From sequence record AP019521.1: 64,000 nucleotides of DNA, one strand, 5' to 3'. This document shows positions 1 through 21,509 of this stretch, in pieces. The translations under genes were made by a program, and so were the position numbers. The notes beneath the pieces were generated by a model. It had not been told where the DNA came from, ran no database searches, and worked only from the letters and a program-made list of their open reading frames with translations. Numbering within the stretch: the stretch's first letter is position 1; every line of letters begins with the position of its first letter. This DNA is from Escherichia phage KIT01.

Positions 1-1496
1 AAAAACTAATAACCTTTGACGAATTACTTACAGGTATTAAAGGCGACGCTGGGGAAAATGGTGATATCGGTCCTCAAGGTCCTATTGGTTTACCTGGCCC
101 GCAAGGTATCCAAGGTGAAGTTGGGCCTAAAGGTCCTAAAGGCGATATCGGTCTTCAGGGTATAGCAGGGCCTGCTGGTCCTCAAGGTCCACAAGGTGAA
201 CGAGGAATACAGGGCTTAACAGGACCACAAGGCCAAATAGGTATTGCAGGGCCACAAGGCGTCAAAGGTGATACCGGTCCTCAAGGTCCTGTCGGCCCAC
301 AAGGTCCAGCAGGTGTACAAGGCGTACAAGGCGTCAAAGGTGATACAGGTCCAGCAGGCCCTGCAGGTTTAACTTGGAAAGGAACTTGGGACTCAGCTAC
401 GGAGTATTCAATAAATGAAGCCGTAGGATATGGAGGTTCTTTGTATTTTGCTACAGAAACCGTGCCTGTCGGCGAAATCCCATCTTTAGCCTCCGACTAT
501 TGGGAAGTTTTGGCTACCGAAGGTCCAGAAGGTCCTCAAGGACCACAAGGCATTCAGGGACCTATGGGTCCTCAGGGTATTCAAGGTCCTTTGGGTCCTG
601 TAGGCCCGCAAGGTATCCAAGGACCAAGAGGCTTACAAGGACCTGAAGGCGAAATAGGACCTCGTGGTTTGCAGGGGTTAAAAGGTGAAACAGGTGCTCA
701 AGGACCGCAGGGCATTCAAGGGCTTAAAGGCGAGCCAGGGGCCCAGGGACCTGATGGTATTGGTTTAACTGGGCCTCAAGGACCAATTGGCCTTACAGGT
801 CCAGCGGGCCCTCAGGGTATAAGAGGAGCCATAGGACCTAAAGGTGATACAGGTTTAACTGGTGCCCAAGGCGAGCAAGGTGCCCCAGGTGTTAAAGGTG
901 ATACCGGTCCTCAAGGATTACAAGGGGTTAAGGGAGATAAAGGGGATAAAGGAGATACTGGTGCCCAAGGATTACAAGGGGTTAAAGGAGATAAAGGAGA
1001 CAAAGGAGATACCGCGCCTCATAATAAAGTATACTATTTAGGACAAACCCCATGGTTCCACAACTCGTATGCTAAACATCAACTTCCAGGAACCAATGAT
1101 TGGCGGATTACTGTAACAGGTACAACCAACTTTGAATCCTATTCATCAGGTAACGTTAGAATAGGATTTTTTAATAATACTTCTGCATCCAGATCATGCA
1201 CGTTTACATTGATTTCTTATGATGCTAACGGCTCACAGAAAAATACAAAATACAATACTGTGCATAATGTTATGGTTCAAAGTTCTTATTATAAATTCTG
1301 GGGTGATAATGCCGATTCATTTATTATAGGCGGCACTTCTAATATATGTGAAGGGTTTTTTACTGATAATGCCACCAATAAAACCTATCATATAAAATTT
1401 ATAGGATTGGTCAAAGCCACAGCTACGGTACCAGGCAAATATGTTCTTGAAGTTGAAGAGATTATTTCTGGTGGCGAACCTGTAAAATATTATTAA
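1..1496 (+). CDS. Collagen-like (Gly-X-Y repeat) protein with non-collagenous C-terminal domain; 5' end lies outside window
   Basis: Frame is open from base 3 to stop at 1494-1496. Two blocks of Gly-X-Y triplets (about 42-370 and 520-1010) flank a short non-collagen linker; a C-terminal non-repetitive domain of about 160 aa follows. The ORF-track start at 441 is a TTG inside the open frame. Confidence 0.8.
912..1012 (+). repeat. Near-identical in-frame tandem duplication (two 47-nt copies, 54-nt period) inside the collagen-like gene
   Basis: Copies at 912-958 and 966-1012 encode the duplicated peptide [16 protein letters not shown]. Confidence 0.7.
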
Positions 1497-1506
1497 TGGA
1501 GGTTGA

Positions 1507-2370
1507 ATGGAACCGGTACAAGCTATATTAGAGCCTGGCGTAATAGATGTAGAATATGGTAATACTTATTCAGCAACAGTAACTCTAACTCCTATAGAAA
1601 ATATCCCAGATGGTTCCGTGATAAGATATGATTGGGTTGTTAATAACAAGTTTGTTGGTACGGGTGAAGCTACTCGTACCACCCAACCATCTCAGACCGG
1701 AAATTATGTGTTATCATGTAGAGTATTCATTACCCCGCCTAATGAAAATACTGTAATGATAACAACTAATAAATCATATGGGTATGTATATAAAAATTCT
1801 GATACAAGTCCAGTAGATGCAGAAATATTATACGATAATAAAATATACCAAATAGGGAGCAAAGTTAGATTATTAGCTACGGCTAATAACCCCGATACTA
1901 ACTATGTTAAAGGTATTATATGGAAGGATGCTGACGGGAATATAATAGGTATAGGGCGGGAATATATCCATACAATGCAATCTGAATATGATATAGTTCG
2001 TGCTAAAGTCACAATGGATTCGCCTACTAGAGATGAATTCAGTAAGAACTTTACCATACATTTATATGCTATAAATGTTCAAGAAGGAACTTGTATAAGA
2101 TACATTCATCCTTTAGACCATCGGGATGCTGGATTTATCTGGTGCGGATGGTGGGTTATGGATGAAGTTCAACGAGCAGTAAAACTTGGATTGGATTGGA
2201 AAAATCCTGAAGGAACTGAGTTAAATTATAAATGTGATTTAGAAACACTGTCATTATTGCTCAAAACATATCCTGAAGCTGAAGTTCAGGAATCAAGGCA
2301 CGGGCATATAATAACCAGACCGCAAATTGAGTCCGGTGAAATATATGAAAAGCCATATGAAGTAAAATAA
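1507..2370 (+). CDS. Hoc-like protein: Ig-like N-terminal region plus Hoc-type capsid-binding C-terminal domain
   Basis: 287 aa; RBS GGAGG 8 nt upstream. C-terminus HPLDHRDAGFIWCGWWVMDEVQ...DWK...YPEAEVQESRHGHII matches the Hoc C-terminal motif of the adjacent hoc gene. Confidence 0.75.
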   Translation: MEPVQAILEPGVIDVEYGNTYSATVTLTPIENIPDGSVIRYDWVVNNKFVGTGEATRTTQPSQTGNYVLSCRVFITPPNENTVMITTNKSYGYVYKNSDTSPVDAEILYDNKIYQIGSKVRLLATANNPDTNYVKGIIWKDADGNIIGIGREYIHTMQSEYDIVRAKVTMDSPTRDEFSKNFTIHLYAINVQEGTCIRYIHPLDHRDAGFIWCGWWVMDEVQRAVKLGLDWKNPEGTELNYKCDLETLSLLLKTYPEAEVQESRHGHIITRPQIESGEIYEKPYEVK

Positions 2371-2374
2371 AAAA

Positions 2375-2394
2375 GGGACCTTACGGTCCCTTTT
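2375..2394. terminator. Bidirectional rho-independent terminator between convergent Hoc-like and hoc genes
   Basis: Hairpin GGGACC-TTAC-GGTCCC flanked by an A-run upstream and T-run downstream. Confidence 0.65.
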
Positions 2395-2396
2395 AT

Positions 2397-3527
2397 TTAT
2401 GGATAGAAATAAATTATTCCTGCCTCCAATGAGGTTTTGTGTACGATATATCCATTACGAGATTCTTGTACATCAACCTCTGGATAGTCGGTAATCATTT
2501 TTTGAAGTGTATATCGGTGCAAATAATACGGGCTATCCGGGTCATCGGTTTTCCAGTCTTTGCCTTCAAGAGTCATTTTCTGGATTTCATCCATAACCCA
2601 CCATCCACACCAGATATAAGCTGAATTGCGAACTGGCAATGGATGTACATAAGGTAATTCACCATCTGGAACTGGTGCGACTTTAGCCGTGACTGTCACA
2701 TTACCGGTTTTGGTAACGGTCGCAGGGTTATAATCAGTCGCCGAAACCACAACAGAAACTTCAATAACCTGTGAACCTTCAGTGTTTGTATCGATTGCTA
2801 GAGTATCTGTGGTACCAGCAATACCAATGCCATCTTTCTTCCAAGAATAAGCAAAAGTGGCACCACTAGGCGCACCTGCTACGGTAGCTTTAAAAGAAGC
2901 CGGAGTTCCTTCAGGTACATTAATAGAGGCTGGCGTTAAATTAACAGAAACCCCAGACATTGTTTTCTTAACAAAAGAAACCGTTATGCCTTTAGCAGCA
3001 GTTGCTGAACCGTATTCCGGAGAGGTAACAGTAACTTCACAATTCAAGGTATAATTTGCTTCGGCTGCTTCAGTTAGTGTAATAGTTTTAGAGGTTTGGC
3101 CTGAAATTACGGTGGTATTTCGTTTCCAAACATAATTAATTGTTGCATCAGCAGGAGCACCGGTTACATTAGCCGTAACAACTTGGGATTGGCCGACTTC
3201 TTTAGAAACGGAAGTAGGGTCCAAAGCCAAAGAGATATCCATAGTTTTATTAGATACGGTAACTTCAAAGGTGTCTTCGGCTGTCTCAAGAGGGCCCGCA
3301 TCGCCAGGGTCAGAAGTTACTACTACTTTTATAACTTTCTTACCCGCAGGAGCAGCACCCGTATATCTCAAAACATTAGTGGTTTCTGGGTTAGCAGCTC
3401 CATCAACGGTCCATACATATGCAATGGTTCCCCCTGTTACAACTGGGTCGGTTGCGGTAGCAGTGTAATTAGCGCTTTCGCCTATTTTCATAGACGCTGC
3501 GCCGGCTATACTTACAGTAAAGGCCAT
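2397..3527 (-). CDS. hoc: Hoc, highly immunogenic outer capsid decoration protein
   Basis: 376 aa; near-collinear match to remembered T4 Hoc including C-terminal YVHPLP...AYIWCGWWVMDEIQKMT...YPEVDVQESRNGYI. Confidence 0.93.
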   Translation of the reverse strand: MAFTVSIAGAASMKIGESANYTATATDPVVTGGTIAYVWTVDGAANPETTNVLRYTGAAPAGKKVIKVVVTSDPGDAGPLETAEDTFEVTVSNKTMDISLALDPTSVSKEVGQSQVVTANVTGAPADATINYVWKRNTTVISGQTSKTITLTEAAEANYTLNCEVTVTSPEYGSATAAKGITVSFVKKTMSGVSVNLTPASINVPEGTPASFKATVAGAPSGATFAYSWKKDGIGIAGTTDTLAIDTNTEGSQVIEVSVVVSATDYNPATVTKTGNVTVTAKVAPVPDGELPYVHPLPVRNSAYIWCGWWVMDEIQKMTLEGKDWKTDDPDSPYYLHRYTLQKMITDYPEVDVQESRNGYIVHKTSLEAGIIYFYP

Positions 3528-3536: not shown

Positions 3537-4214
3537 TTATTTTAAAGTGACAAAAGATGAATTACGCGTTTCACGTACTAATACTGAGCCATTACGATTG
3601 ATGTAATAAATCAGACTGAATAATGTTTGGTGGGCTGAAGGATGTTGGAAATCTTTAGGACGTTCTTTCCAATCAGGGGTTTCAGAAATCCATTGATAAA
3701 TCCACCAAGGAACAGTACAGTAACCTGGGTTTTTACCAATAAGCAAAAGATTGGGACTAAAGTTTTCAGGGAGTTCAAATTTAGGTTTTTCTGATTCTTT
3801 AACCAAGGTTATAGCTTGATTGAATTTCTCTTCGACAAACGGGACATCCTCTTCAATAATCTCTACCTTAGGAAGTTCGGCTACCTCAACGACTTCAACA
3901 ACTGCCTCAGGAGCATCGAACAACAGGGTGGCTTCTTCTTTAGCCGGTTCAGCACCATCAACAAATTCGTTAGCACCATTGAGTTCGTCGGCAGCATCAA
4001 TCAAATCAGAAATAGACAAACCTTCGGTTTCCGGAAGTGGTTCGTCAGCCAAGGCTTTAAGACCTTCAGTGATATTGATAATCAAATTATCAACCGAACG
4101 GGTTTTCTTAAGTTTTAAACCGAACTGTTCACCGTATTCGATTAACTTAGCTTTAGCTTCTTTTTTATCTTCGAGTGCACGAAGCTCTTCAATATATTGA
4201 TGGTCCATAATCAT
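3537..4214 (-). CDS. inh: Inh-like protein (inhibitor of prohead protease), acidic
   Basis: 225 aa; position directly upstream of hoc on the same strand as in T4, and similar size; identity inferred from synteny. Confidence 0.55.
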   Translation of the reverse strand: MIMDHQYIEELRALEDKKEAKAKLIEYGEQFGLKLKKTRSVDNLIINITEGLKALADEPLPETEGLSISDLIDAADELNGANEFVDGAEPAKEEATLLFDAPEAVVEVVEVAELPKVEIIEEDVPFVEEKFNQAITLVKESEKPKFELPENFSPNLLLIGKNPGYCTVPWWIYQWISETPDWKERPKDFQHPSAHQTLFSLIYYINRNGSVLVRETRNSSFVTLK

Positions 4215-4228: not shown

Positions 4229-4236
4229 TATAAATA
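4229..4236 (+). promoter_or_regulatory. T4-type late promoter (TATAAATA) for uvsW
   Basis: Exact TATAAATA 29 nt upstream of the uvsW ATG. Confidence 0.6.
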
Positions 4237-4242: not shown

Positions 4243-4250
4243 TATTTATA
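4243..4250 (-). promoter_or_regulatory. T4-type late promoter (TATAAATA on minus strand) for inh-hoc
   Basis: Reverse complement of 4243-4250 is TATAAATA, 29 nt upstream of the inh start; divergent with the uvsW promoter. Confidence 0.55.
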
Positions 4251-4264: not shown

Positions 4265-5761
4265 ATGCAAATTCAAGTACATTTTGATAATTTTAGTCAT
4301 GTTCGTGTTGAATGCGATGAATCTACATTCTACGAACTCAGAGACTATTTTAGCTTTGAAGCTGATGGATATAAATTCAACCCTAAATTTCGTTATGGGC
4401 AATGGGATGGACGTATTCGTCTTCTAGATTATAACCGTAAACTGCCTTATGGACTCGTCCCTCAAATTAAAAAGTTCGCTGAACAATTTGAATACTCTCT
4501 GTGGATTGACCCACGTATTCTTGAACAGGAAGATATTTCTCGTGAAGATTTTGACTCATGGGTGGCTTCTCAAGAAATTTATTCAGGGTCTACCAAGATT
4601 GAGCCGCATTGGTATCAGAATGAAGCCGTATACAACGGCCTGACAAAACGTCGCGCAATTCTGAATTTACCTACATCCGCAGGTAAATCATTAATCCAGG
4701 CACTCCTGAGTCGATATTACGTTGAGAACTATGAAGGTAAAATCCTCATCTTAGTTCCTACTACTGCACTTGTCGACCAGATGATTAATGACTTCATCGA
4801 TTATCGTTTGTTCCCTAAAGCCGCAATGCTTGGTATTCGTTCAGGTACCGCTCGTGATTCTGATGCAATGATTTACGTTTCGACTTATCAAACTGCTATT
4901 AAGCAACCTAAAGAATGGTTTGCTCAGTTTGGTATGTTTATGAACGACGAATGCCACTTGGCTACAGGTAAATCTATTTCTACCATCATCGAAGGCCTAA
5001 CCAACTGTATGTTTAAATTCGGTTTGTCTGGTTCTTTAAAAGATGGTAAAGCTAATTTAATGCAATATATGGGTTTGTTTGGTGATGTGTTTAAGCCAGT
5101 ATCCACCTCCCAGTTAATGGAAGAAGGACAGGTTACAGACCTTAAAATCAACAGTATTTTCCTTCGATACCCGGACGAATTCACCGTTAAAATGAAAGGT
5201 AAAGATTACCAATCAGAAATTAAAGTCATTACTAAGGCTACTCGTCGTAATAAATGGGTTGCTAATTTAGCTGTTAAACTCGCTAAGAAAGAAGAGAACG
5301 TATTCCTGATGTTTAAAAACATTGAACACGGTAAAACTCTTTTTGAAATGGTTAAAGAGCAACATAAAGAAGTTTATTACGTATCAGGTGAAGTTAATAC
5401 CGAAACGCGTAATGCTCTGAAAGTAATGGCGGAAAATGGTAAGGGTATTATTGTTGTGGCAAGTTATGGTGTGTTCTCTACTGGTATTTCCGTTAAGAAC
5501 CTTCACCACGTTGTATTTGCCCATCCAGTAAAATCTAAAATCATTGTACTCCAGACAATTGGTCGTGTACTCCGTAAACATGCCTCTAAATCAACAGCAC
5601 AGGTGTGGGATATCATCGACGACATGGGTGTTAAGCCTAAATCAGCTACGGCTAAAAAGAAATATGTTCATTTGAACTACGCCCTCAAACACGCTTTAGA
5701 ACGTATTCAACGTTATGCTGATGAGAAATTTAATTACGTAATGAAACAGGTGGATTTATGA
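4265..5761 (+). CDS. uvsW: UvsW DNA/RNA helicase
   Basis: 498 aa; strong match to T4 UvsW (HVRVECDESTFYELRDYFSFEADGY..., Walker A LNLPTSAGKS, DECH box). Confidence 0.95.
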   Translation: MQIQVHFDNFSHVRVECDESTFYELRDYFSFEADGYKFNPKFRYGQWDGRIRLLDYNRKLPYGLVPQIKKFAEQFEYSLWIDPRILEQEDISREDFDSWVASQEIYSGSTKIEPHWYQNEAVYNGLTKRRAILNLPTSAGKSLIQALLSRYYVENYEGKILILVPTTALVDQMINDFIDYRLFPKAAMLGIRSGTARDSDAMIYVSTYQTAIKQPKEWFAQFGMFMNDECHLATGKSISTIIEGLTNCMFKFGLSGSLKDGKANLMQYMGLFGDVFKPVSTSQLMEEGQVTDLKINSIFLRYPDEFTVKMKGKDYQSEIKVITKATRRNKWVANLAVKLAKKEENVFLMFKNIEHGKTLFEMVKEQHKEVYYVSGEVNTETRNALKVMAENGKGIIVVASYGVFSTGISVKNLHHVVFAHPVKSKIIVLQTIGRVLRKHASKSTAQVWDIIDDMGVKPKSATAKKKYVHLNYALKHALERIQRYADEKFNYVMKQVDL

Positions 5762-5985
5762 AAACCTTTAAAGAAGTTATTCAGGAAGCATCTATTGAAA
5801 GCTTCATGGCTAAAATTGGTTCTTGTCAGACTATGGATGGTCTGAAGGAATTGGAAAAGTATTACAAAACTCGTAGTAAGGAAGCCGAACTTCGTGATTC
5901 GGACGATATTAGCGTGCGTGATGCATTGGCTGGTAAGAGAGCTGAATTGGAGTCGATGGACGACGAGGAAGAGGAAGATTTCTAA
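5758..5985 (+). CDS. uvsW.1: UvsW.1 small acidic protein
   Basis: 75 aa ORF overlapping the uvsW stop (ATGA), as in T4. Confidence 0.8.
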   Translation: MKTFKEVIQEASIESFMAKIGSCQTMDGLKELEKYYKTRSKEAELRDSDDISVRDALAGKRAELESMDDEEEEDF

Positions 5986-6015
5986 ACAAAAAAGGCCCAA
6001 CCTTTCGGAAGGGCC
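5984..6015 (-). terminator. Rho-independent terminator for the minus-strand uvsY operon
   Basis: Hairpin GGCCC...GGGCC (5994-6015); the T-run follows on the minus strand only. Confidence 0.55.
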
Positions 6016-6044
6016 AATAACCATAAATGGCTATACACACTAGA

Positions 6045-6212
6045 CTAAAGTAGTAATTGGGTTTCGTTCAGCTGTTCTTCAGTGTTTTCCGTAACTGGCA
6101 AGCTTTGAACGTAATTATAGCATGAGCCCGGATGAACCGGACCTTTTTCTGTTTCAACAACCAATGCAGCATCGATTGGAGTTTTACAGACAACGCAAAT
6201 CTTATCTGACAT
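6045..6212 (-). CDS. uvsY.-2: UvsY.-2-like small Cys-containing protein
   Basis: 55-aa ORF (MSDKICVVCKTPIDAAL...) not in ORF track; RBS AGGAGA 7 nt upstream; position matches T4. Confidence 0.6.
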   Translation of the reverse strand: MSDKICVVCKTPIDAALVVETEKGPVHPGSCYNYVQSLPVTENTEEQLNETQLLL

Positions 6213-6240
6213 GATTGTCTCCTTAGTTTAACTTACATAC

Positions 6241-6339
6241 CTATTTATTACTTGCTAAAGCAGCATTAATGAATTCTTGGAGAAGTTTCATCTTATCGGC
6301 ATCTACTTTAATGGGTTTGGTATTTTTAGTACGTCTCAT
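6241..6339 (-). CDS. uvsY.-1: UvsY.-1-like small protein
   Basis: 32-aa ORF (MRRTKNTKPIKVDADKMKLLQEF...) with start overlapping the uvsY stop (ATGA). Confidence 0.45.
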   Translation of the reverse strand: MRRTKNTKPIKVDADKMKLLQEFINAALASNK

Positions 6340-6767
6340 TTTTCACCTGCTTCAAATTTCCTGAGCTCCAACATATTCTTTAACGAGAACCCTCTAGCTT
6401 TGACTGCATCAAGTGCTGAACTACAAAAGTCCTGTAATAAAGCCCAATACTGAATTGATGTATCGATTTTAATTACACTAGAATCCGCAGCCATAACGGT
6501 CTTTAATTCAGACTTCTCATATTGGTCCATACAAACCTCATCACCAGGCTCTCCACGTCCCGTGTAGAAATCTAATCGCTTCTTAAGTGAGGTCTTTTTC
6601 TGGATTTCTAATCTCATTATTTCTTTCTTGCAATTCGTATACAGCCTTAGCCATTTGCTGTGCAGCAAAACGTTGTTCTGTACTTCATATTGTAAACGAG
6701 TTCCATCAATCTTTAAATCCTCGTCTAATGCATCTTGAAACGACTCCAACTTGTACTCAATTTCCAT
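6336..6767 (-). CDS. uvsY: UvsY recombination mediator
   Basis: 143 aa; matches T4 UvsY (LQYE..NNV.L.SKWL..., YEKSE.KTV..AD..V.K.DTS.QYW). Confidence 0.9.
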   Translation of the reverse strand: MEIEYKLESFQDALDEDLKIDGTRLQYEVQNNVLLHSKWLRLYTNCKKEIMRLEIQKKTSLKKRLDFYTGRGEPGDEVCMDQYEKSELKTVMAADSSVIKIDTSIQYWALLQDFCSSALDAVKARGFSLKNMLELRKFEAGEK

Positions 6768-7383
6768 TGTATTTCCTCATAAAAGTAATAACCATACCAT
6801 CATACCACACTTCCGGATATTTGTGTTCTATTGCTATAGTTCTAAACCTTCTAGCTTTAGGCATTCCAGATTCTACCCATAATGAATACAGTTCATCCTC
6901 TTTATCCCAAGGTATATTTTTACTTCGTCTGTTTGGCCTTGGTACATCTTTAGCCCAATGGACCTGATGCTTGAATTTTTCCTTCATTGTTTTAGATTGC
7001 CGTTCTCTACCTATCTTAGTAGAAGGATTTTTCTTTCCTAACATAGGATGAACTTCCATTAATTGCCCGCCGACACCGCCTTTAGCTATATTAACACAAT
7101 TACTAAATTTAATTTTGGCTTCGCCAACTAAGAGTTCTTCAAACTCAGCATTCAATTCTAGGGTAGGTTGAACGGACAGAATATGTTTTACAAATCTAGT
7201 ATTTGGGTTTTTCTTGGCAGATTTTATAAAAATACCAGACCCTAAATAACTATTATTTAGAGAAGTGCTGGTGTGCTTACCAAAATAGACCCAGTAATTA
7301 TTATCTGTAAATATTTCTGTCATATAACAATAATGTATTTTATCTCTCATCGCATGTTTCCTGTGTAATAACCATAGGACCAT
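6757..7383 (-). CDS. GIY-YIG-like putative homing endonuclease (Seg-like), basic C-terminus
   Basis: N-terminal IHY...(14 aa)...VYFG resembles a GIY-YIG motif; Lys/Arg-rich C-terminal half; sits between uvsY and gene 25, which are adjacent in T4. Likely true start is the internal ATG at about 7350 (MRDKIHY...). Confidence 0.5.
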   Translation of the reverse strand: MVLWLLHRKHAMRDKIHYCYMTEIFTDNNYWVYFGKHTSTSLNNSYLGSGIFIKSAKKNPNTRFVKHILSVQPTLELNAEFEELLVGEAKIKFSNCVNIAKGGVGGQLMEVHPMLGKKNPSTKIGRERQSKTMKEKFKHQVHWAKDVPRPNRRSKNIPWDKEDELYSLWVESGMPKARRFRTIAIEHKYPEVWYDGMVITFMRKYNGN

Positions 7384-7408
7384 TATACACTATTCATTTG
7401 AACAGCAA

Positions 7409-7798
7409 TTAACCACTCTGTGAGAGCTGGATTCTAATTTGCTCTAATGTATCAGGGTCATCAACTATACTAAACTGAACCGTTACTATAATCGAGTTAT
7501 CATCGTACACGGGTGTCACACCTACAGCTAGAGCAGAAATTCTAGGTTCGAAGTTCCGCACGGCGGAAACTATATTACGCTTAATGGTATCCGTGATTAA
7601 TGGGGTGATATTCTCAAACAATTGGTTACTGATGTCACAACCAAATTCCGGCATAAAAGGGCGTGAACCTTTGCGAGTAGTAATAATGCCTAACAAACTA
7701 TTTTTTACTGCACGAGCACCTGTAGCTTTAGCGACGTCTCTATTCCAAGACGTCCTCATTTCAGGGTCTAAATCTGAATACATTTTATTGATATTCAT
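7409..7798 (-). CDS. 25: gp25 baseplate wedge protein
   Basis: 129 aa; matches T4 gp25 (NINK.YSD.DPEM...NSLLGIITTRKGSRPF.PEFGCD). Confidence 0.95.
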   Translation of the reverse strand: MNINKMYSDLDPEMRTSWNRDVAKATGARAVKNSLLGIITTRKGSRPFMPEFGCDISNQLFENITPLITDTIKRNIVSAVRNFEPRISALAVGVTPVYDDNSIIVTVQFSIVDDPDTLEQIRIQLSQSG

Positions 7799-8421
7799 TA
7801 CATCACCTTAAAGAACTCTTTAAGTCCCTCAATAACGTGGACGGTATGTTCACCACATTCACAAGAAATAGGTATGGCCAAAATAGGCTTAGGGGTAACT
7901 AGTGCATCATAAACTTCTTTTATATCTTTTTCTGTTATCACAGAATAAAGGTCATCAAGTTCCGCATCGCTTAAATCGGAAAGAAGAAGCTTTTCGCCTG
8001 CAGAAGTTAAAATATAATCGATACACCCTGCGACCATCATAGCTCTATTTTTATCTTCAAAGAGTTTAGGGTATCTGAAAACAATTTTAAAGTTGCCAAA
8101 GTCTTTAATAACATCCGGCTCTTTGCCCAATGTTGCGCGAGTTAGTGTCATAGGGACAACCTGTGAGCGACCACAACTACAACTCCACTCACGTTCTATA
8201 TTCACTTCAGCTAATGAATGGGCCCACAGGTTTATCACCAGGAGCTCAGATTCTTGCTTGTTTAAATCACGAGCATCTGTACAATTCGAAATGAGTTCAT
8301 TGATAAAGGACTCTATTCTGCCTTCTAATTTAGCTTGGAGCAAGTCCTTATACTCTCTGAGGGTAAATGCTCTGCATTTTATGGTTTTGTTTTTAATTTT
8401 TACGTCAAAAGTATAATTCAT
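7798..8421 (-). CDS. 26: gp26 baseplate hub protein
   Basis: 207 aa; synteny and size as T4 gp26; overlaps gene 25 start. Confidence 0.85.
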   Translation of the reverse strand: MNYTFDVKIKNKTIKCRAFTLREYKDLLQAKLEGRIESFINELISNCTDARDLNKQESELLVINLWAHSLAEVNIEREWSCSCGRSQVVPMTLTRATLGKEPDVIKDFGNFKIVFRYPKLFEDKNRAMMVAGCIDYILTSAGEKLLLSDLSDAELDDLYSVITEKDIKEVYDALVTPKPILAIPISCECGEHTVHVIEGLKEFFKVM

Positions 8422-8439
8422 TGTCTTCTCCTTTAAGCT

Positions 8440-8447
8440 TATTTATA
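8440..8447 (-). promoter_or_regulatory. Late promoter (TATAAATA, minus strand) for genes 26-25
   Basis: Part of the palindromic TATTTATAAATA between divergent genes 26 and 51. Confidence 0.6.
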
Positions 8448-8451
8448 AATA
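8444..8451 (+). promoter_or_regulatory. Late promoter (TATAAATA) for gene 51 operon
   Basis: Exact TATAAATA 20 nt upstream of the ATG at 8472. Confidence 0.6.
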
Positions 8452-8471
8452 CATCAATAAGAGGACACCCT

Positions 8472-9224
8472 ATGGCTAATATAGTACGTTGTGAAATGCC
8501 TGATGGAATCCACCGATTTAAACCTTTTACAGTAGCTGATTATCGTGATTTTATTTTGATTCGAAATGACATGAATAATAAATCGCCTGAAGAGCAAAAA
8601 CAAATTTTAGATGAGTTACTGGAAGAATACTTCGGTGAATATCCTATGTCATGGCGCCCGTATATGTTCATTGAACTTTACACGTCATCACTCGGCAAGA
8701 CCAAAATTCCTATCCGATACACTTGTAGTAAGTGTGAAAAGGATAGACAAGTTTTATTCAATTTGAAACAGACCAAGTTAGATAATCCCACAATTGAAGT
8801 GGCCGGCTTGAAGCTAACATTCAAATTTCCGGAAATAGAATATCAAGACAAATCCGAATTGATTCTGAACACCCTCCAAACCGTGGAAGATGAAAACGGA
8901 AAATATAATTGGTCGGACCTTTCTGAAGAGGACCAATTAGCCGTAATAGATGCTATAGACTTATCCACTTTAGAGGATATAGTCAAACAAACTAGCCCTA
9001 TTAATTTTGAACTAAAATATGGATGCTGTAATCGTAGAACAATTACGTATACCGATATTTTAGAGGTGTTTAAGCTTATAGTCAACCCGGATGAGATATT
9101 TTTATTTTACCAAATAAACCATTTATTGGTAAAGAACAATTATTCATTAGAAAGCATTATGCAGATGATTCCAATCGAACGCGGTATTGCTTTGTCTTTG
9201 GTTGAAAAGGACCTTAAGAAATGA
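8472..9224 (+). CDS. 51: gp51 baseplate hub assembly protein
   Basis: Start ATG at 8472 ([12 protein letters not shown]...) downstream of the late promoter; synteny with T4 gene 51. Confidence 0.85.
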
Positions 9225-10390
9225 GTTCAAAAACTATGCAACGTGAAGGCTTTCCTAATATTAGTATACGCCTTTACGAAGATTATGACGCCTGGTTAGA
9301 GCATCGTTTTGTTGAACTAGGCGCGACATTTACTACTCTAACAATGCGAGATGGACTTTACGGTAGTAATGAAGGATTGCTCCAGTTTTATGATGCAAAG
9401 AACCTTCATACTAAAATGGACGGCGAACAGATTATCCAAATTTCTGTTAAAAACGCTAACTCTGAGCGTACCCAGTCAAGAATTTATGGAAGCAAACACT
9501 TTGCTGTAGGAGTGGATTCGAAGGGCGACAATATCATAACAATACAACTCGCCCCAATCCACTTTTTAGAGAATCTTAAATTTAGTCGTATGTTCTTCCC
9601 TAGTGTTCAAGAAACATTAACTGAAATGATTGGTGTTATTTATCAAGACCGTCCACTTCTTGCTCCTCCTTTGAACGGGATAAACGTTTACGTTCCTAAT
9701 GTTCCTTGGTGTGATTCAATGGACCGATATATGGAATTTGTACGTGAAGTAGGTATGGCTGTTGAATCTGATAAATTTGTATTTGTCTGGGAAGATATAG
9801 ATGGTATTTCTATCATGGACTACGAATTTATGGTTAATCAAGAACCAATTAATTTTGTGGTAGGTGAGCCTCGTTTAATAGGCCAATACGTCCAAGATAT
9901 GGACACACCTATCGCATTTGATTTTGAATGGTTAACTAAAGCCAACCAGCATTCCAGAAAGCCATATGAAAACGCTACTGTATACGCCCACTCTTTCTTA
10001 GACAAAAACGCCACACGAATTACTTTTGGCGATGGGCAAAACAGTATATTGGTTTCTCGCTCTGGTGGATATTCCGATTATACCTACCGAAACGGATTTG
10101 AAGAAGCTGATAGATTAGTTACTATGGCCCAGTATGATGGATACGCCCATTGTAAGGTATACGGTAACTTTGAACTAACTCCAGGCGATAAGATTAATTT
10201 CTATGACCCTAAAAACCAATTCCAATACGATTTTTATGTAGACGAAGTTATTCATGAAGTGAGTAACAATACATCAATTACAAACCTTTATATGTTTACT
10301 AATGGTAAGCCTATTAAGATTGAAGAACCACCGAAGGTTAAAAATGAACTTAAAACTGATACTCCCGATCAAGAAAATAACGCTGGGTGA
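9221..10390 (+). CDS. 27: gp27 baseplate hub subunit
   Basis: 389 aa; strong match to T4 gp27 (TTLTMRD.LYG.NEG.LQFYD.KN.HTKMDG..IIQISV). Confidence 0.95.
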
Positions 10391-10871
10391 CAAAGAGATT
10401 TCCATTCCTAAATTGGGTCTTAAACACCAGAAATTGGTTAAAGATGAAAAGGACCCTTACAAGGCCCTCCATATGACAATGGATTCCATTTGTAAAGGAT
10501 TAACTGCAGCAGAAACAGATTTTGCTGCTTTGCACCTTTTAGAATTCAATGGAAGATTAAAAAGTAAAGTAACCAAAGACGGGTTCACATATAATTTAAA
10601 CGACCTTTATATTTGCCAGCGGCTTGAATTCCAATTCCAAGGTAAAACGTTTAAATTTAAATCACATGAACCATTTCAAACATTTGGGCCTGTTGATAGT
10701 GTATTACAATCCCTTTACCTTGGTGATGATGTACCAGATTTTCTGGATATGCCTGCCTTTGTTGCTACATGGGCCGACGATATAACTTCTACTGTAGCTA
10801 TCCCTGGCCCTAATGGTCCTATCAAAGGATTGCTTAAAATCATGGATATCTTAAATGAAGAACGAATCTAA
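10344..10871 (+). CDS. 28: gp28 baseplate hub distal subunit
   Basis: Start at internal ATG 10344 ([28 protein letters not shown]), overlapping gp27 end as in T4. Confidence 0.85.
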
Positions 10872-12591
10872 TCAGAATAGTTTTCGTCGCAATAAACTGA
10901 TTGAAGAAATGGCCCCTCAGCGTCGTGCTGAGGCGCTAGCCCAAACTCAGAACGACGAATTAGGAAATATATCAGATGTTTTATCTGATTCCCAGGCGGC
11001 GTCTGAATTGCTCTCTGAAGTGGTTGAGACAAAGTCCAATCAGATTATTAGTTCTGTGGACCGAGTAGATAAAAGCGTCCAAGATGTTGTTGCCGGAACC
11101 GAATTAACGGCCGAAGCTATATCAGAACAAACCCAACAATCTAAAGCTCTTTCGGATGCATTAAACGAAAAGATTAATAAGCTTTCTAATATGTTGGAGG
11201 CTAAATTTTCTGGTATTTCTATTCCGCCGGAAGGGAGTTCGTTAAAGGTTATTGAAGACTCTATTCCGGAAGAACCTAAGGCTGAAACTCCTAAAGTTCC
11301 TGCTGTTATTGAAGATATTCTTCCGCCTGAAGATAATAAACCTGACGCTGAATTTATGCCTGAACCTCCTAAAAATTCAGATGAAGGTAAAGAAGGTGAT
11401 AAGACTTCTCTTTCTGATAAAATTGAAGCCCTTACTAAAATAACTGAAAAGGGATTTAAAGCTTCTATAGGCGTCGCTGATAGAATTTCAGGCATGCTTT
11501 TTAAGTATACTATTACCGCTGCTGCTGAAGCTGCTAAACTCGCCGCAGGTTTAGTCCTTTTAATATTTGGTATAGATGCCATTCGTGTATACTTCCAATA
11601 TTTCATGGACCAATTTGAGTCAGGGTGGAAAGAATTTAACGATAAGTTTAAAGAGTGGGGACCATTACTTGAAGGGCTAATGACATGGGCCAAGAATGCC
11701 GAAGCCATGTTTAGTGAAGGGAACTGGTTAGGTCTGGCTGAAGCTATTATTCGCGGTATGGTTAATCTTACTAAAAATATGGCACAACTTTTAATGCTTG
11801 GTATTTCTAAGTTGATTTCTGCTATTTTAAGCAAAATACCTGGTATGGGTGAGTTGGCCGAAAACGTAGAGGCTTCCGCCTTAATGTCGTATCAACAAAA
11901 TACCGGAGCCACTTTAGATGACGAAGACCAAACTAAAGTAGCCAAATACCATGATAGACGTTCTGCTGAGGCTTTAGAAACTGCCGAGAAAATGAATAAG
12001 AAGTATAAGGATAAACCCGAGCTTATAAACCAGGCAGAGAAATACGGTAATCTTACTAAAGAACAAGCCGACCAATTACGCGCAGGTGGAATTGACACAA
12101 GCTTCCGTGACCTCCCTGAAGAAGAACGTTTAGAGTATTTCAAGAAACGTGATAAGGCCCAAGCTGATATTATTCGTTTGACTCAAACTGCTGATAATAT
12201 AATGAAGCCTGATTCTAAAGATATCGAAAATGCTAAAGCATTTAAAGCTGATATCGAGAAACAATTAGCCGACCCTATTATGGCTAAAGGCGGAGCACCG
12301 AAGGACCTTAATATCCAACAATTACTTGATAAGATGAATAAATCTTTAGAGAAATTTAATGAAGCTGAAAAGCCTAAACCTGCTTCTGTAGCGGAATCTC
12401 CTGAAAATACCCAGGTTAAAAAGGTTGATGAGCAAATGAGAGCAAAGGAAAATGCTAAATATAGTCAGCAAGCTCCAACTCAAATAAATCAGCAAACGAA
12501 TATCAAGAAAACGAGTAAGACTAGTTATAATTTACCTCCACAGTCCTCTACTCCGGCTCCTGGTATGCGTCAAGCTACTAAAGTTAATTAG
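10855..12591 (+). CDS. 29: gp29 baseplate hub / tail length determinator
   Basis: 578 aa; synteny; low-complexity charged repeats typical of gp29. Confidence 0.9.
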   Translation: MKNESNQNSFRRNKLIEEMAPQRRAEALAQTQNDELGNISDVLSDSQAASELLSEVVETKSNQIISSVDRVDKSVQDVVAGTELTAEAISEQTQQSKALSDALNEKINKLSNMLEAKFSGISIPPEGSSLKVIEDSIPEEPKAETPKVPAVIEDILPPEDNKPDAEFMPEPPKNSDEGKEGDKTSLSDKIEALTKITEKGFKASIGVADRISGMLFKYTITAAAEAAKLAAGLVLLIFGIDAIRVYFQYFMDQFESGWKEFNDKFKEWGPLLEGLMTWAKNAEAMFSEGNWLGLAEAIIRGMVNLTKNMAQLLMLGISKLISAILSKIPGMGELAENVEASALMSYQQNTGATLDDEDQTKVAKYHDRRSAEALETAEKMNKKYKDKPELINQAEKYGNLTKEQADQLRAGGIDTSFRDLPEEERLEYFKKRDKAQADIIRLTQTADNIMKPDSKDIENAKAFKADIEKQLADPIMAKGGAPKDLNIQQLLDKMNKSLEKFNEAEKPKPASVAESPENTQVKKVDEQMRAKENAKYSQQAPTQINQQTNIKKTSKTSYNLPPQSSTPAPGMRQATKVN

Positions 12592-12599
12592 GATTAATA

Positions 12600-13688
12600 A
12601 TGAAAGTAAAAGAACTTGACTTTGATGTAGCCTCCTTGTTTAAAGGAGGTTCAAAGACCTCCGCAGGTCAATCTAAAACACAAGCAATAAAAACCACGGT
12701 AACCGCTCAGTACCCAGCTGAGCGTGCTTCAGGTAATGATACCTCAACCGATATGGTATTAAACGACCTCTATAAAAATGGATTGCTTTTTACTGCATAT
12801 AATTTTAGTTCTCGTGTATCTCCGGATTTGCGTAACGACCGTTCGAGTCAAATGACTAAAAAGTTCTCAAGTGCAGCCAGCAAATTAACAGGCAATAGTG
12901 GAACATATAGTGCTGTTAAAAACTTATTTGGTGGAAATACTAAGGGCGTTAAATTTGATACCCAAGCCTTAGCCAATATTCTTTTACCTCGTTCTAAATC
13001 TGATGTGGATTCCGTGTCACATAAATTTAACGATGTAGGCGAATCATTGATTACTAAAGGTGGTGGTACTGCTACAGGTATTTTGAGTAACGTTGCAAGT
13101 ACTGCGGTATTTGGTGCATTGGAATCTGTGACTAATGGTGTAATGGCTGATTCAGGTGAGCAGATATACACCACCGCTCGTAGTATGTACGCAGGGCCGG
13201 ATAACCGTACTAAGGTATTTACCTGGGAAATGACTCCACGAAACGCCCAAGACCTTATCCAGATTATTAAAATATATGAAATCTTTAATTACTATTCTTA
13301 TGGCGAAACAGGCAATTCAGCCTTCGCAGGTGAATTAAAAGATAAGATTGATACTTGGTACCGTTCTACATTTAAAAAAGAAGCTATTGACAAGTTTGAT
13401 GGTAAGCTATTAGGGGAAAGTATTACAAGCTTCCTTTCTAATGTTATTGTGGTAAGTAACCCGACCATTTGGTATATCCGAAACTTTGGCGATAGCAGTT
13501 CATATGATGGTCGTGAAGATATTTTTGGTCCATGCCAAATCCAGAGTATACGATTTGATAAAACCCCTGATGGCCATTTTAACGGATTAGCTATTGCTCC
13601 TAACTTACCATCTACATTTAGTTTAGAAGTTACTTTCCGTGAAATTATTACTCTTAACCGTGGCTCACTTTATACGGAAGGATTCTAA
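12600..13688 (+). CDS. 48: gp48 baseplate tail tube cap
   Basis: 362 aa; synteny and size match T4 gp48. Confidence 0.9.
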   Translation: MKVKELDFDVASLFKGGSKTSAGQSKTQAIKTTVTAQYPAERASGNDTSTDMVLNDLYKNGLLFTAYNFSSRVSPDLRNDRSSQMTKKFSSAASKLTGNSGTYSAVKNLFGGNTKGVKFDTQALANILLPRSKSDVDSVSHKFNDVGESLITKGGGTATGILSNVASTAVFGALESVTNGVMADSGEQIYTTARSMYAGPDNRTKVFTWEMTPRNAQDLIQIIKIYEIFNYYSYGETGNSAFAGELKDKIDTWYRSTFKKEAIDKFDGKLLGESITSFLSNVIVVSNPTIWYIRNFGDSSSYDGREDIFGPCQIQSIRFDKTPDGHFNGLAIAPNLPSTFSLEVTFREIITLNRGSLYTEGF

Positions 13689-14641
13689 TGTATACTTTAC
13701 AAGAATTTCAGAACCAGGCAATTAATATTGACCTACAGAGGAATAACCTGTTTAGTGTAGTATTTGCTACGGTTCCTTCTTCTAAATCCCAGGCGCTCCT
13801 CGACCAGTTCGGTGGAGCTTTATTTAACAATATCCCATTGAATACCGATTTGTTTGGTATTACACAAGGAGAGTTGACCCAAGGTGTTACGACATTAGTG
13901 ACAGCGGGCACTCAGAAGTTGATTCGTAAGTCAGGCATAAGTAAATATCTGATTGGAGCTATGTCATCCAGGGTTGTGCAGAGCTTACTAGGAGAGTTTG
14001 AAGTAGGTACATATCTGATGGATTTTTTCAATATGGCCTATCCTACGGCAGGTCTTTTAGTCCACGCCGTTAAAATCCCGGATAATACTTTGAACTATGA
14101 AATGGATTTGAACCACAACTCGCCTAACATCAAAATTACCGGAAGAGAATATTCTCCATTGGTATTAAGCTTCCGTATGGATTCTGAAGCTGCTAACTAC
14201 CGTGCTTTTAATGATTGGGTCAATAGTGTCCAAGACCCTATTACACAATTAAGAGCATTGCCTGAGGATGTTGAAGCCGACATTCAAGTCAACCTTCATT
14301 CTCGTAATGGATTACCCCATACAGTAGTAATGCTTAATGGTTGTGTTCCTGTTGGTGTTTCGTCACCAGAATTATCTTATGACGGTGATAACCAAATTGC
14401 TTCGTTTGATGTTACATTTGCTTATAGAAGTGTACAGACGGGTGCAGTTGGCAAACAAGCTGCTTATGAATGGTTGGAAGATAAAGTCCTTAAAGGCGTG
14501 GCAGGGATAAGTGAGAGCAATTCGCTGAGTTCTTCAGTAGCTAAATTAAGCCGACTTTCAGGAGCTTCTAGTGGATTAACAGGATTAGTTAATACATTTG
14601 GTGGGCGTGCTATTAATAATGGAATATCGAGGTTGTTATAA
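13688..14641 (+). CDS. 54: gp54 baseplate tail tube initiator
   Basis: 317 aa; synteny and size match T4 gp54. Confidence 0.9.
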   Translation: MYTLQEFQNQAINIDLQRNNLFSVVFATVPSSKSQALLDQFGGALFNNIPLNTDLFGITQGELTQGVTTLVTAGTQKLIRKSGISKYLIGAMSSRVVQSLLGEFEVGTYLMDFFNMAYPTAGLLVHAVKIPDNTLNYEMDLNHNSPNIKITGREYSPLVLSFRMDSEAANYRAFNDWVNSVQDPITQLRALPEDVEADIQVNLHSRNGLPHTVVMLNGCVPVGVSSPELSYDGDNQIASFDVTFAYRSVQTGAVGKQAAYEWLEDKVLKGVAGISESNSLSSSVAKLSRLSGASSGLTGLVNTFGGRAINNGISRLL

Positions 14642-14648
14642 CAAAAAA

Positions 14649-14670
14649 GGAGAGCATATGCTCTCCTTTA
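14649..14670. terminator. Bidirectional terminator between gene 54 and convergent minus-strand genes
   Basis: Perfect palindrome GGAGAGCATATGCTCTCC with A-run upstream and T-rich downstream. Confidence 0.6.
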
Positions 14671-14675
14671 GGGGT

Positions 14676-14966: not shown

Positions 14967-15023
14967 AATGTTCTCCTCATGTTTGTGTAAGGTAATAGTA
15001 CCACATCCTTGTGGTGTTGTAAA

Positions 15024-17147: not shown

Positions 17148-17150
17148 TAT

Positions 17151-19196: not shown

Positions 19197-19199
19197 TAT

Positions 19200-21287: not shown

Positions 21288-21337
21288 AATAATTCCTCTT
21301 TAATAACCTTATTTATGCCAGAAAAGGCCCGAAGGCC

Positions 21338-21508: not shown

Positions 21509-21509
21509 A

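What the first reader, a model, noticed from the sequence alone, without database searches (positions are those of the whole stretch)
1507..3527. Second Hoc-family gene convergent with canonical hoc
The 287-aa ORF at 1507-2370 has an Ig-like beta-rich N-terminal region and a C-terminus (HPLDHRDAGFIWCGWWVMDEVQ...DWK...YPEAEVQESRHGHII) that is clearly homologous to the capsid-binding module of the adjacent Hoc (YVHPLPVRNSAYIWCGWWVMDEIQ...). Two proteins with the same capsid anchor would be expected to compete for hexamer-centre sites or form a mixed display. The paralog is shorter than Hoc.
Basis: seen in the sequence. Interest (0 to 1): 0.68.

Follow-up and report, generated by a model that had tools for sequence, protein, structure and literature searches.

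The report
Second Hoc head-decoration gene, fibre-linked
This T4-like phage really does carry a second, shorter copy of the Hoc head-decoration protein with an intact capsid anchor, but such second Hoc genes are already annotated in related phages; the less expected point is that they almost always sit directly behind a collagen-like fibre gene.

Summary
Window 1507-2370 (+) encodes a 287-aa Hoc-family protein ("hoc2"), convergent with the canonical 376-aa hoc (2397-3527, -). A hairpin that looks like a two-way terminator fills the 26-nt gap.

hoc2 has two Ig-like domains and a folded C-terminal domain. That domain superposes on the solved T4 Hoc capsid-binding domain (TM 0.82, 46% identity). 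It keeps 13 of 16 published gp23-contact or structural residues; the ESRNG loop reads ESRHG. The gene is under strong purifying selection (dN/dS 0.07).

It is not a local duplicate. Its anchor belongs to a different clade from T4-type Hoc, one that serves as the only Hoc in Serratia phage CHI14. The docking loop on gp23 is nearly invariant across the phages compared. Binding at hexamer centres, and so mixed or competitive display with hoc1, is the likeliest mechanism. It is inferred, not shown.

The arrangement is already annotated in VR7, VR25/26, JS10, IME08, CGG4-1 and Aeromonas phage 65. Fokine et al. 2023 note two-Hoc phages. It is therefore a new member of a known kind.

In 20 T4-like phages besides the window, in at least eight named genera plus unassigned ones, a second Hoc gene follows a fibre gene that is collagen-like in all but one. 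The fibre's N-terminal type tracks the hoc2 type. A functional fibre-plus-anchor module is possible but unproven.

The parts
1..1496 (+). Collagen-like fibre gene. Its 5' end is cut off by the window edge. It reads ...[11 protein letters not shown], then Gly-X-Y repeats, a central non-collagen insert (LTWKGTWD...[11 protein letters not shown]), more repeats, and a 161-aa globular C-terminal domain.
   Evidence: Translation of 3-1496 is open throughout. Pfam Collagen matches at E = 2e-26. It resembles VR25/VR26 gp196. The globular end (1011-1493) has no tblastn match in 50,697 phage records.
1498..1502 (+). Shine-Dalgarno sequence GGAGG for hoc2. It lies 4 nt before the ATG and starts 1 nt after the fibre gene's TAA stop (1494-1496).
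   Evidence: Read directly from the sequence. Similarly tight or overlapping junctions occur in JS10, CGG4-1, Aeromonas phage 65, FBB1 and Phynn.
1507..2370 (+). hoc2, a second Hoc-family head-decoration gene of 287 aa and pI 5.0.
   Evidence: It is 93% identical to VR25 gp197. dN/dS against VR25 is 0.069 at dS 0.47.
1507..1794 (+). hoc2 Ig-like domain 1 (aa 1-96).
   Evidence: AF2 model with block pLDDT 91-95, all beta. Foldseek matches tandem Ig/FnIII proteins at E around 1e-6.
1804..2076 (+). hoc2 Ig-like domain 2 (aa about 100-190).
   Evidence: AF2 model with pLDDT 80-92, all beta. It aligns with the second and third Ig domains of hoc1.
2098..2355 (+). hoc2 C-terminal capsid-binding domain (aa 198-283), of type B (RYIHPLDHR...LNYKCDL...VQESRHG).
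   Evidence: Foldseek top PDB hit is 8t1x_X, the T4 Hoc C-domain bound to a gp23* capsomer: TM 0.82, rmsd 2.3 A, 46% identity. It keeps 13 of 16 T4 contact or structural residues (residue list from PMC10385173).
2371..2394 (.). Palindromic GC-rich hairpin AAAAGGGACC-TTAC-GGTCCCTTTT, flanked by A and T runs. It fills the gap between the two stop codons and looks like a bidirectional intrinsic terminator.
   Evidence: The terminator scan reports 10 pairs, 5 of them G-C; sequence read. DNA similarity to IME08 and CLB_P2 begins at 2363.
2397..3527 (-). hoc1, the canonical hoc gene: 376 aa, three Ig-like domains plus a type-A (T4-type) C-domain, pI 4.7.
   Evidence: PHROG 1149 matches at E = 1e-108. 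It is 94% identical to IME08 Hoc and 53% to T4 Hoc. It keeps 15 of 16 T4 contact residues.
3537..4214 (-). inh, the minor head protein that inhibits the prohead protease. It lies upstream of hoc1 on the same strand. Its C-terminal roughly 65 aa weakly resemble the Hoc C-domain.
   Evidence: PHROG 1051 matches at E = 4e-89. The resemblance to Hoc is covered.
4243..4250 (-). TATAAATA, the T4 late-promoter consensus, 29 nt upstream of inh. It is the likely late promoter for inh and hoc1.
   Evidence: Exact match. That TATAAATA is the late-promoter consensus comes from my own knowledge of T4.

Best explanation
hoc2 is a functional second Hoc-type decoration protein. Its C-terminal domain docks, as T4 Hoc does, on the centre of gp23* hexamers of the expanded capsid. 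It projects a short fibre of two Ig-like domains. Each hexamer offers a single docking site, and the canonical Hoc of the same phage uses the same kind of anchor. Virions are therefore expected to carry a mixture of long (three-Ig) and short (two-Ig) fibres, in a ratio set by expression level and affinity. The gene is not a local duplicate. It is the second gene of a mobile two-gene accessory cassette (collagen-like fibre gene, then hoc2) inserted between gene 24.3 and the 3' end of hoc. Shown here: homology, fold, retention of contact residues, purifying selection, cassette structure and distribution. Inferred: capsid binding, sharing of sites with hoc1, and late expression.
For: Hoc family membership is supported.

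The AF2 model (pLDDT 88.6) has a C-domain that superposes on the T4 Hoc C-domain solved on the capsomer (8t1x_X: TM 0.82, rmsd 2.3 A, 46% identity).

Fokine et al. 2023 (PMC10385173) list the residues that contact gp23* or hold the binding loop. hoc2 keeps Y293, H295, H299, R300, W306, W309, W310, D313, Q354, E355, S356, R357 and G359. It changes Y304F, N358H and Y360H.

The ESRHG variant also occurs in the Hoc of Serratia phage X20 (P0007), which showed a single Hoc match in the C-domain search. The same type-B anchor clade supplies the only annotated Hoc of Serratia phage CHI14, at the canonical locus next to inh. Its closest relatives by tblastn also include single-match Hocs of Acinetobacter, Proteus and Morganella phages.

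Kosakonia phage 305 carries the fibre + hoc2 cassette and has no canonical hoc.

The gp23 docking loop (T4 residues 328-350, including D336, P337 and R344) is identical in five of the six phages compared, which carry A-type only, B-type only, or both. CHI14 alone differs, by I340T.

dN/dS is 0.069 at dS 0.47 against VR25. The ORF is intact, has a GGAGG ribosome-binding site and is followed by a terminator-like hairpin. Its pI of 5.0 is acidic like other Hocs.
Against: No experiment or proteomic dataset shows any second Hoc in virions; literature searches found none.

N358, which hydrogen-bonds gp23 R344 in T4, is His in hoc2, so affinity could differ.

Gene 23 of this phage lies outside the window, so its docking loop is inferred from relatives.

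The cassette's promoter lies outside the window. No exact late-promoter consensus sits directly upstream of the cassette in VR25, VR7, JS10 or IME08, so expression timing is unknown.
Confidence: 0.62

Rival explanations
1. hoc2 works together with the collagen-like fibre encoded just upstream. Its C-domain anchors on the capsid and its N-terminal domains hold or recruit the fibre's N-terminal motif, giving collagen-like head fibres. Alternatively, the pair is co-displayed as one adhesion unit.
For: A fibre gene followed by hoc2, on the same strand and abutting or overlapping, occurs in the window and in 20 other T4-like phages: VR5/7/25/26, ESCO10, Kosakonia 305, JS10, Esco_phi_B-01, CLB_P2, dhaeg, dhabil, Ec2-ASingh, CGG4-1, ABTNLsp5, Aeromonas phages 65, 65.2, AS4, GomatiRiver_11 and AhFM11, Erwinia FBB1 and Pantoea Phynn.

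The fibre's N-terminal type tracks the hoc2 type. [24 protein letters not shown] goes with VR-type hoc2, and GHDGRG... plus about 45 further aa goes with JS10-type hoc2. This held in every pair whose fibre N-terminus I could read or match.

The distal globular domain next to hoc2 shuffles independently: the VR25 and JS10 distal domains are alike, and the window's has no match in the phage collection.

JS10-type hoc2 is conserved over its full length at 30-50% across two subfamilies.

IME08 and PspYZU05 keep a remnant of the fibre N-terminus next to hoc2.

There is a precedent: the collagen-like trimer gp12 of SPP1 binds hexamer centres (PMC7602432).
Against: The same N-terminal motif heads collagen-like 'tail fiber' proteins of Vequintavirinae such as CR3 gp011. 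These sit among tail genes with no Hoc gene nearby. The motif may therefore dock on something other than Hoc.

Only two module lineages exist, so the co-variation could simply be shared descent.

A trimeric fibre on a monomeric Hoc raises a stoichiometry problem. No interaction was modelled or tested.
Confidence: 0.22
2. hoc2 is expressed but is functionally redundant or outcompeted on the capsid. On this view it is a spare allele carried along with a mobile cassette, useful only after recombination into another phage or when hoc1 is lost.
For: hoc1 and hoc2 assort independently. VR25 and VR7 share a 98% identical hoc1 but only a 41% identical hoc2. The window shares hoc2 with VR25 (93%) and hoc1 with IME08 (94%). 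The closest relatives lack the cassette altogether. Kosakonia 305 has only the hoc2 type.
Against: dN/dS of 0.07 at dS of 0.47 shows sustained selection on the protein in genomes that also carry hoc1. The contact residues are retained.
Confidence: 0.12
3. The similarity is a decaying duplicate or a short shared linker, so there is no functional second Hoc.
For: None found.
Against: The ORF is intact with a ribosome-binding site. dN/dS is 0.07. The C-domain is folded and matches 8t1x at TM 0.82. Profile E-values run from 1e-44 to 1e-54.
Confidence: 0.02

Closest known systems
T4 Hoc, the highly immunogenic outer capsid protein (PDB 5vf3, 8t1x; Fokine et al. 2023, PMC10385173)
   Same: [quoted passage not shown] 13 of 16 contact or structural residues are kept. 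Both are acidic.
   Different: hoc2 has two Ig-like domains, not three. Its loop reads ESRHG, not ESRNG, and it also carries Y304F and Y360H. Its anchor falls in a different clade (type B). It is encoded on the opposite strand, behind a collagen-like fibre gene, and in addition to a canonical hoc.
VR25 gp197 and VR26 'Hoc-like head decoration' (Gaprivervirus), and VR7 gp197
   Same: VR25/VR26 proteins are 93% identical to hoc2 over the full length. The gene order is the same: collagen-like gene, hoc2, convergent hoc, inh, uvsW. The GenBank notes already say 'similar to bacteriophage T4 Hoc'.
   Different: The window's backbone is a Dhakavirus, 93-95% identical in DNA to UGJNEcP3 and JS98. Its hoc1 is IME08-like, and only 44% identical to VR25 hoc1. 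The fibre's distal domain differs and has no match in the phage collection.
Other phages with more than one Hoc: Serratia phage Muldoon and Enterobacter phage PG7 (noted by Fokine 2023), JS10, IME08, Salmonella CGG4-1 (three Hocs), and Aeromonas phage 65 hoc-2 ('second copy of the hoc gene')
   Same: Each has more than one gene carrying the Hoc capsid anchor in one genome. In JS10, CGG4-1 and Aeromonas phage 65 the extra Hoc follows a collagen-like or fibre gene.
   Different: JS10/IME08-type hoc2 shares only the C-domain with the window's hoc2 (43% identity). The two Muldoon genes lie in tandem on the same strand. According to Fokine et al. 2023, PG7 fuses the anchor to a lipase-like domain.
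SPP1 gp12, a collagen-like trimer that binds reversibly at hexamer centres (cited in PMC7602432)
   Same: It is a precedent for a collagen-like protein acting as a capsid decoration at the hexamer centre. This bears on the fibre gene linked to hoc2.
   Different: I tested no sequence relationship. SPP1 gp12 binds by itself, and no Hoc-like partner is described for it.

Membership tests
Hoc family (T4-type head outer capsid decoration protein) | Significant sequence-profile match to Hoc proteins | tested here: met
   PHROG 1149 matches at E = 1e-54. phmmer against PDB T4 Hoc gives E = 2.5e-24. BLASTP against the adjacent Hoc gives E = 7e-29.
Hoc family (T4-type head outer capsid decoration protein) | C-terminal non-Ig capsid-binding domain with the fold solved on the gp23* capsomer | tested here: met
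   The AF2 model's C-domain has pLDDT 84-91. The Foldseek top hit is 8t1x_X: TM 0.82, rmsd 2.3 A, 93 columns, 46% identity.
Hoc family (T4-type head outer capsid decoration protein) | Conserved capsid-contact residues (Y293, H295, R300, W309, W310, D313-R357 pair, E355-G359 loop; PMC10385173) | tested here: met
   13 of 16 residues are identical to T4. All the residues the paper calls 'highly' or 'well' conserved are kept. The changes are Y304F, N358H and Y360H.
Hoc family (T4-type head outer capsid decoration protein) | N-terminal string of Ig-like domains | tested here: met
   The AF2 model shows two beta-sandwich domains. Foldseek matches two-domain Ig/FnIII proteins at E around 1e-6.
Hoc family (T4-type head outer capsid decoration protein) | Acidic protein (pI about 4-5) | tested here: met
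   pI is 5.00 for hoc2 and 4.72 for hoc1. The criterion comes from PMC10385173.
Hoc family (T4-type head outer capsid decoration protein) | Binds as one copy at the centre of gp23* hexamers of expanded capsids; present in virions | not testable with these tools
   This needs virion mass spectrometry, in vitro binding or cryo-EM. The indirect support is that the gp23 docking loop is nearly invariant in relatives.
Fibre + Hoc2 two-gene cassette of T4-like phages (a grouping proposed here, not a published family) | A Hoc-like gene immediately downstream of, and on the same strand as, a fibre gene with the N-terminal motif G-x-x-G-x-F/Y-x-G-x-x-L...I-P/T-F | tested here: met
   The window's fibre gene ends 10 nt before hoc2. 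Its visible N-terminal end, [11 protein letters not shown], matches the VR25 motif. The same pairing occurs in 20 other phages.
Fibre + Hoc2 two-gene cassette of T4-like phages (a grouping proposed here, not a published family) | Physical or functional interaction between the fibre and Hoc2 | not tested
   There is only co-variation of types. Against it, the same motif occurs on Vequintavirinae fibre proteins with no Hoc nearby.

The most novel reading that the evidence does not exclude
The second Hoc is not just an extra decoration. It is the capsid-anchoring partner of the collagen-like fibre encoded directly upstream. Together they would form a mobile two-gene 'head fibre' module that moves between T4-like genera and gives the capsid long collagen-like adhesin fibres with exchangeable distal domains.
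Probability: 0.22. Interest if true: 0.65.

Novelty: new member of a known kind. Interest (0 to 1): 0.32.

Why it matters
Hoc is the main platform for T4 capsid display and is proposed to mediate adherence to mucus and cell surfaces. No study in the literature I searched examines a phage that naturally makes two Hoc proteins with one docking site per hexamer. Such a phage is a natural experiment in mixed or competitive capsid display, so occupancy ratios, affinity tuning by the N358H change, and functional division between long and short fibres could all be measured directly. The recurrent linkage to a collagen-like fibre gene may point to a capsid-borne fibre system in T4-like phages that has not been described. 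As a sequence feature, though, the second hoc is already annotated in several genomes, so on its own it is not surprising to a specialist.

Tried and rejected
1. Local tandem duplication is rejected. The C-domain tree puts hoc2 with the type-B anchors of other genera, not with hoc1. hoc1 and hoc2 also have discordant nearest relatives.

2. Pseudogene or linker is rejected.

3. The search for a promoter was inconclusive. The window begins inside the fibre gene. In relatives there is no exact TATAAATA directly upstream of the cassette, only AATAAATA or CATAAATA at -29 or -40 in VR25/VR7 and Kosakonia 305, and nothing in JS10 or IME08. A TATAAATA on the + strand just beyond rnlB in VR25, VR7 and Kosakonia 305 could drive a long leader, but I did not test this.

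4. Literature on virion proteomics of any second Hoc yielded nothing. The VR7 genome paper is not held. The VR26, Yersinia and Petrov 2010 papers do not mention Hoc.

5. Any link between hoc2 and the doubled gene 24 is rejected. JS98 has two gene-24 copies and no hoc2, and UGJNEcP3 has one copy.

6. Inh as a third carrier of the Hoc anchor remains only suggestive. It is not counted as a finding.

7. tblastn with the fibre's distal domain found no match, so that domain could not be classified.
Full report
**What is there.** The left end of the window is the hoc region of a T4-like phage. A collagen-like gene runs off the left edge and ends at 1496 (+). It is followed by a 287-aa ORF at 1507-2370 (+), a 376-aa ORF at 2397-3527 (-), inh at 3537-4214 (-) and uvsW at 4265-5761 (+). 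Over 4300-24000 the window is 93-95% identical in DNA to the Dhakaviruses UGJNEcP3 and JS98. I call the 376-aa gene hoc1 and the 287-aa gene hoc2.

**Checking the observation.**
- The two proteins align over the whole length of hoc2 (BLASTP E = 7e-29, 28% identity).
- Both match the PHROG family 'Hoc-like head decoration' (hoc2 E = 1e-54, hoc1 E = 1e-108).
- hoc2 matches the solved T4 Hoc sequence at E = 2.5e-24.
- A profile of the Hoc C-domain, searched against all ORFs of the window, finds hoc1, hoc2 and, marginally, Inh, and nothing else.

**Anatomy of hoc2.** An AlphaFold2 model built on 28 Hoc homologues has mean pLDDT 88.6. It shows two beta-sandwich domains (residues 1-96 and about 100-190), then a compact domain (198-283) with the order strand, helix, helix, strand, strand. 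[quoted passage not shown] The next matches are two-domain Ig/FnIII proteins at E around 1e-6.

**Contact residues.** Fokine et al. 2023 (PMC10385173) list the T4 Hoc residues that contact gp23* or hold the binding loop. Of the 16 I tracked, hoc2 keeps 13: Y293, H295, H299, R300, W306, W309, W310, D313, Q354, E355, S356, R357 and G359. It changes Y304F, N358H and Y360H. hoc1 keeps 15 of 16. Both proteins are acidic (pI 5.0 and 4.7), as the paper describes for Hoc homologues.

**Is the gene alive?**
- Against VR25 gp197 (93% amino-acid and 90% nucleotide identity), dN is 0.033 and dS is 0.47, so dN/dS is 0.069. That is strong purifying selection.
- hoc2 has a GGAGG ribosome-binding site 4 nt before its ATG. 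It starts 10 nt after the fibre gene's stop, which suggests co-transcription.
- The 26-nt gap between the two convergent stop codons is almost wholly taken up by a palindromic hairpin, AAAAGGGACC-TTAC-GGTCCCTTTT. With an A run on one side and a T run on the other, it has the form of a two-way terminator.
- A T4 late-promoter consensus, TATAAATA, lies 29 nt upstream of inh on the minus strand. The cassette's own promoter lies outside the window.

**Origin.**
- A tree of C-domains separates a T4-type clade (PYVHPLP.R...YYLHRYTL), which contains hoc1, from a second clade (RYIHPLDHR...LKYKCDL), which contains hoc2.
- That second clade supplies the only annotated Hoc of Serratia phage CHI14, at the canonical locus next to inh.
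- By tblastn, the nearest relatives of the hoc2 C-domain outside the VR group are Hocs of Serratia, Erwinia, Acinetobacter, Proteus, Morganella and Providencia phages. Each of these showed a single match per genome.
- JS10- and IME08-type second Hocs form a third, more divergent type.
- hoc1 and hoc2 have discordant relatives. The window shares hoc2 with VR25 (93%) but hoc1 with IME08 (94%, against 44% to VR25). VR25 and VR7 share a 98% identical hoc1 but only a 41% identical hoc2.
- The closest relatives of the window, JS98 and UGJNEcP3, have a single 282-aa hoc and no cassette.
- Kosakonia phage 305 has the cassette and no canonical hoc.

hoc2 is therefore an accessory gene that moves between phages, not a local duplicate.

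**Mechanism.** T4 carries 155 Hoc copies, each attached to the centre of a gp23* hexamer and touching all six subunits. The gp23 segment that Hoc contacts (T4 residues 328-350, including D336, P337 and R344) is identical in T4, JS98, UGJNEcP3, VR25 and Kosakonia 305. CHI14 alone differs, by I340T. These six phages carry the A-type anchor only, the B-type only, or both. Two anchors of the same fold, with nearly the same contact residues, facing a nearly invariant docking surface should bind the same site. Mixed or competitive occupancy is thus the most likely outcome, with the N358H change a candidate affinity modifier. The ESRHG variant also occurs in the Hoc of Serratia phage X20 (P0007), which showed a single Hoc match, so His at that position is compatible with being a phage's sole Hoc. 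All of this is inference. I found no proteomic, binding or structural data on any second Hoc.

**Comparison with what is known.** The arrangement is already in the databases:
- IME08 has two genes named hoc.
- JS10 has two 'Hoc-like head decoration' genes.
- Salmonella phage CGG4-1 has three.
- Aeromonas phage 65 has hoc-2, annotated 'second copy of the hoc gene'.
- Fokine et al. 2023 point out that Muldoon and PG7 encode two Hoc-like proteins, and suggest the anchor is used to functionalise the capsid with other ligands.
- A search with the C-domain alone found 1,478 places in 1,297 phage records, so extra copies are not rare.

The finding is a new member of a known kind.

**The fibre linkage.** This is the less expected result. 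In 20 T4-like phages besides the window, a second Hoc gene lies directly downstream of a fibre gene, on the same strand, and abutting or overlapping it where I could read the junction. The fibre gene is collagen-like in all but one. The phages are VR5, VR7, VR25, VR26, ESCO10, Kosakonia 305, JS10, Esco_phi_B-01, CLB_P2, dhaeg, dhabil, Ec2-ASingh, CGG4-1, ABTNLsp5, Aeromonas phages 65, 65.2, AS4, GomatiRiver_11 and AhFM11, Erwinia FBB1 and Pantoea Phynn.

The fibres share an N-terminal motif in two forms:
- [24 protein letters not shown], followed at once by collagen. This form is always paired with VR-type hoc2.
- GHDGRG..F.G..L....IPF..IL plus about 45 further residues. This form is always paired with JS10-type hoc2.

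The distal globular domain, which lies next to hoc2 in the DNA, shuffles independently. The VR25 and JS10 distal domains are alike, and the window's has no match in 50,697 phage records. IME08 and Pseudomonas phage PspYZU05 keep only a stub of the fibre N-terminus next to their hoc2.

This pattern would fit a physical partnership between the fibre's N-terminus and hoc2. SPP1 gp12 is a precedent for a collagen-like trimer at hexamer centres. But the same N-terminal motif heads collagen-like 'tail fiber' proteins of Vequintavirinae such as CR3 gp011, which sit among tail genes with no Hoc gene nearby. There are also only two module lineages, so shared descent could explain the co-variation. I put this reading at about 0.2.

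**Side observation on Inh.** The last 65 or so residues of Inh align with the Hoc C-domain at the WW, DWK and (Q/R)E(S/T)RN motifs.
- Support is weak but comes from several directions: reciprocal PHROG cross-hits (E = 7e-5 and 0.0098), BLASTP E = 0.003 and a profile search E = 0.016.
- The AF2 model of that segment has moderate confidence (pLDDT 73-82) and the same order of secondary-structure elements.
- The best PDB match of the Inh model is 8t1x_X, but only at E = 0.28 and TM 0.52.
- Profile-profile comparison is not significant (E = 0.05-0.13).

I record it as a lead, not a result.

**Verdict.** The gene is real, intact and selected. It is a genuine Hoc-family member with a complete capsid anchor. 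It is ordinary as a sequence feature because it is already annotated elsewhere. It has modest interest as a natural two-ligand, one-site display system, and a somewhat more interesting but unproven link to a collagen-like fibre gene.

Noticed in passing
window 3540-3737 (-), the C-terminal roughly 65 aa of Inh: The Inh C-terminus (PGYCTVPWWIYQWISETPDWK...VLVRETRNSSFV) aligns with the Hoc capsid-binding domain at the WW, DWK and ESRN-like motifs. Evidence: PHROG cross-hits (E = 7e-5 and 0.0098), BLASTP E = 0.003, HMM E = 0.016, and an AF2 segment with the same strand-helix-helix-strand-strand order whose top PDB hit is 8t1x_X (E = 0.28, TM 0.52). hhalign is not significant. Inh may be a third, diverged carrier of the Hoc anchor.
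   Followed up: partly
window 1011-1493 (+): The 161-aa globular C-terminal domain of the collagen-like fibre protein has no tblastn match (E <= 1e-3) in 50,697 phage records. The rest of the protein resembles VR25/VR26 gp196.
   Followed up: partly
window 1-2370 (+); loci L001, L004, L005, L008, L013, L014, L015, L018, L019: A fibre gene followed directly by a second hoc gene recurs in 20 other T4-like phages, in at least eight named genera plus unassigned ones. The fibre is collagen-like in all but Pantoea Phynn. The fibre's N-terminal motif type co-varies with the hoc2 type, while the distal domain shuffles independently.
   Followed up: partly
L016:4992-6362 (Cronobacter phage CR3 gp011) and other Vequintavirinae: The same N-terminal motif (GEQNGVYFGYALYDLVNEKLIPFDQI) and collagen repeats occur on 'tail fiber' proteins of rV5-like phages, which have no Hoc gene nearby. 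The distal domain of CR3 gp011 looks, by eye, like that of the IME08 'tail fiber-like protein'.
   Followed up: partly
L002:5055-5129 (IME08) and L017:4501-4650 (PspYZU05): Short ORFs just upstream of hoc2 (MPDNPLYGHDGRG... and MADVIFGHDGRG...) look like stubs of the fibre gene's N-terminus left after deletion of the collagen and distal parts.
   Followed up: partly
L001:4296-4335, L005:3465-3504, L002:5021-5060 and L008 just upstream of 4652: A conserved stretch...TTTTAACTTGTAAACAGGAG..., marks the left boundary of the cassette in VR25, VR7, IME08 and JS10. In JS10 it precedes the fibre gene's ATG; in VR25 and VR7 it starts a 20-codon ORF. The equivalent region lies outside the window.
   Followed up: no
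window 4229-4236 (+) and 4243-4250 (-): Back-to-back TATAAATA late-promoter consensus sequences lie in the 50-nt gap between inh and uvsW, one facing each gene.
   Followed up: no
window 2363-2396: DNA similarity to Dhakaviruses that carry a different hoc2 allele (IME08, CLB_P2, dhaeg) begins at 2363, at the last codons of hoc2 and the terminator hairpin. This suggests the hairpin is a recombination junction for swapping cassettes.
   Followed up: no
window 6757-7383 (-): A 208-aa ORF lies between uvsY and gene 25. Its N-terminal region (IHYCYMTEI...YFGKH...YLGSG) looks to me like a GIY-YIG seg-type homing endonuclease. I saw this only in the ORF translation and did not check it against any library.
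   Followed up: no
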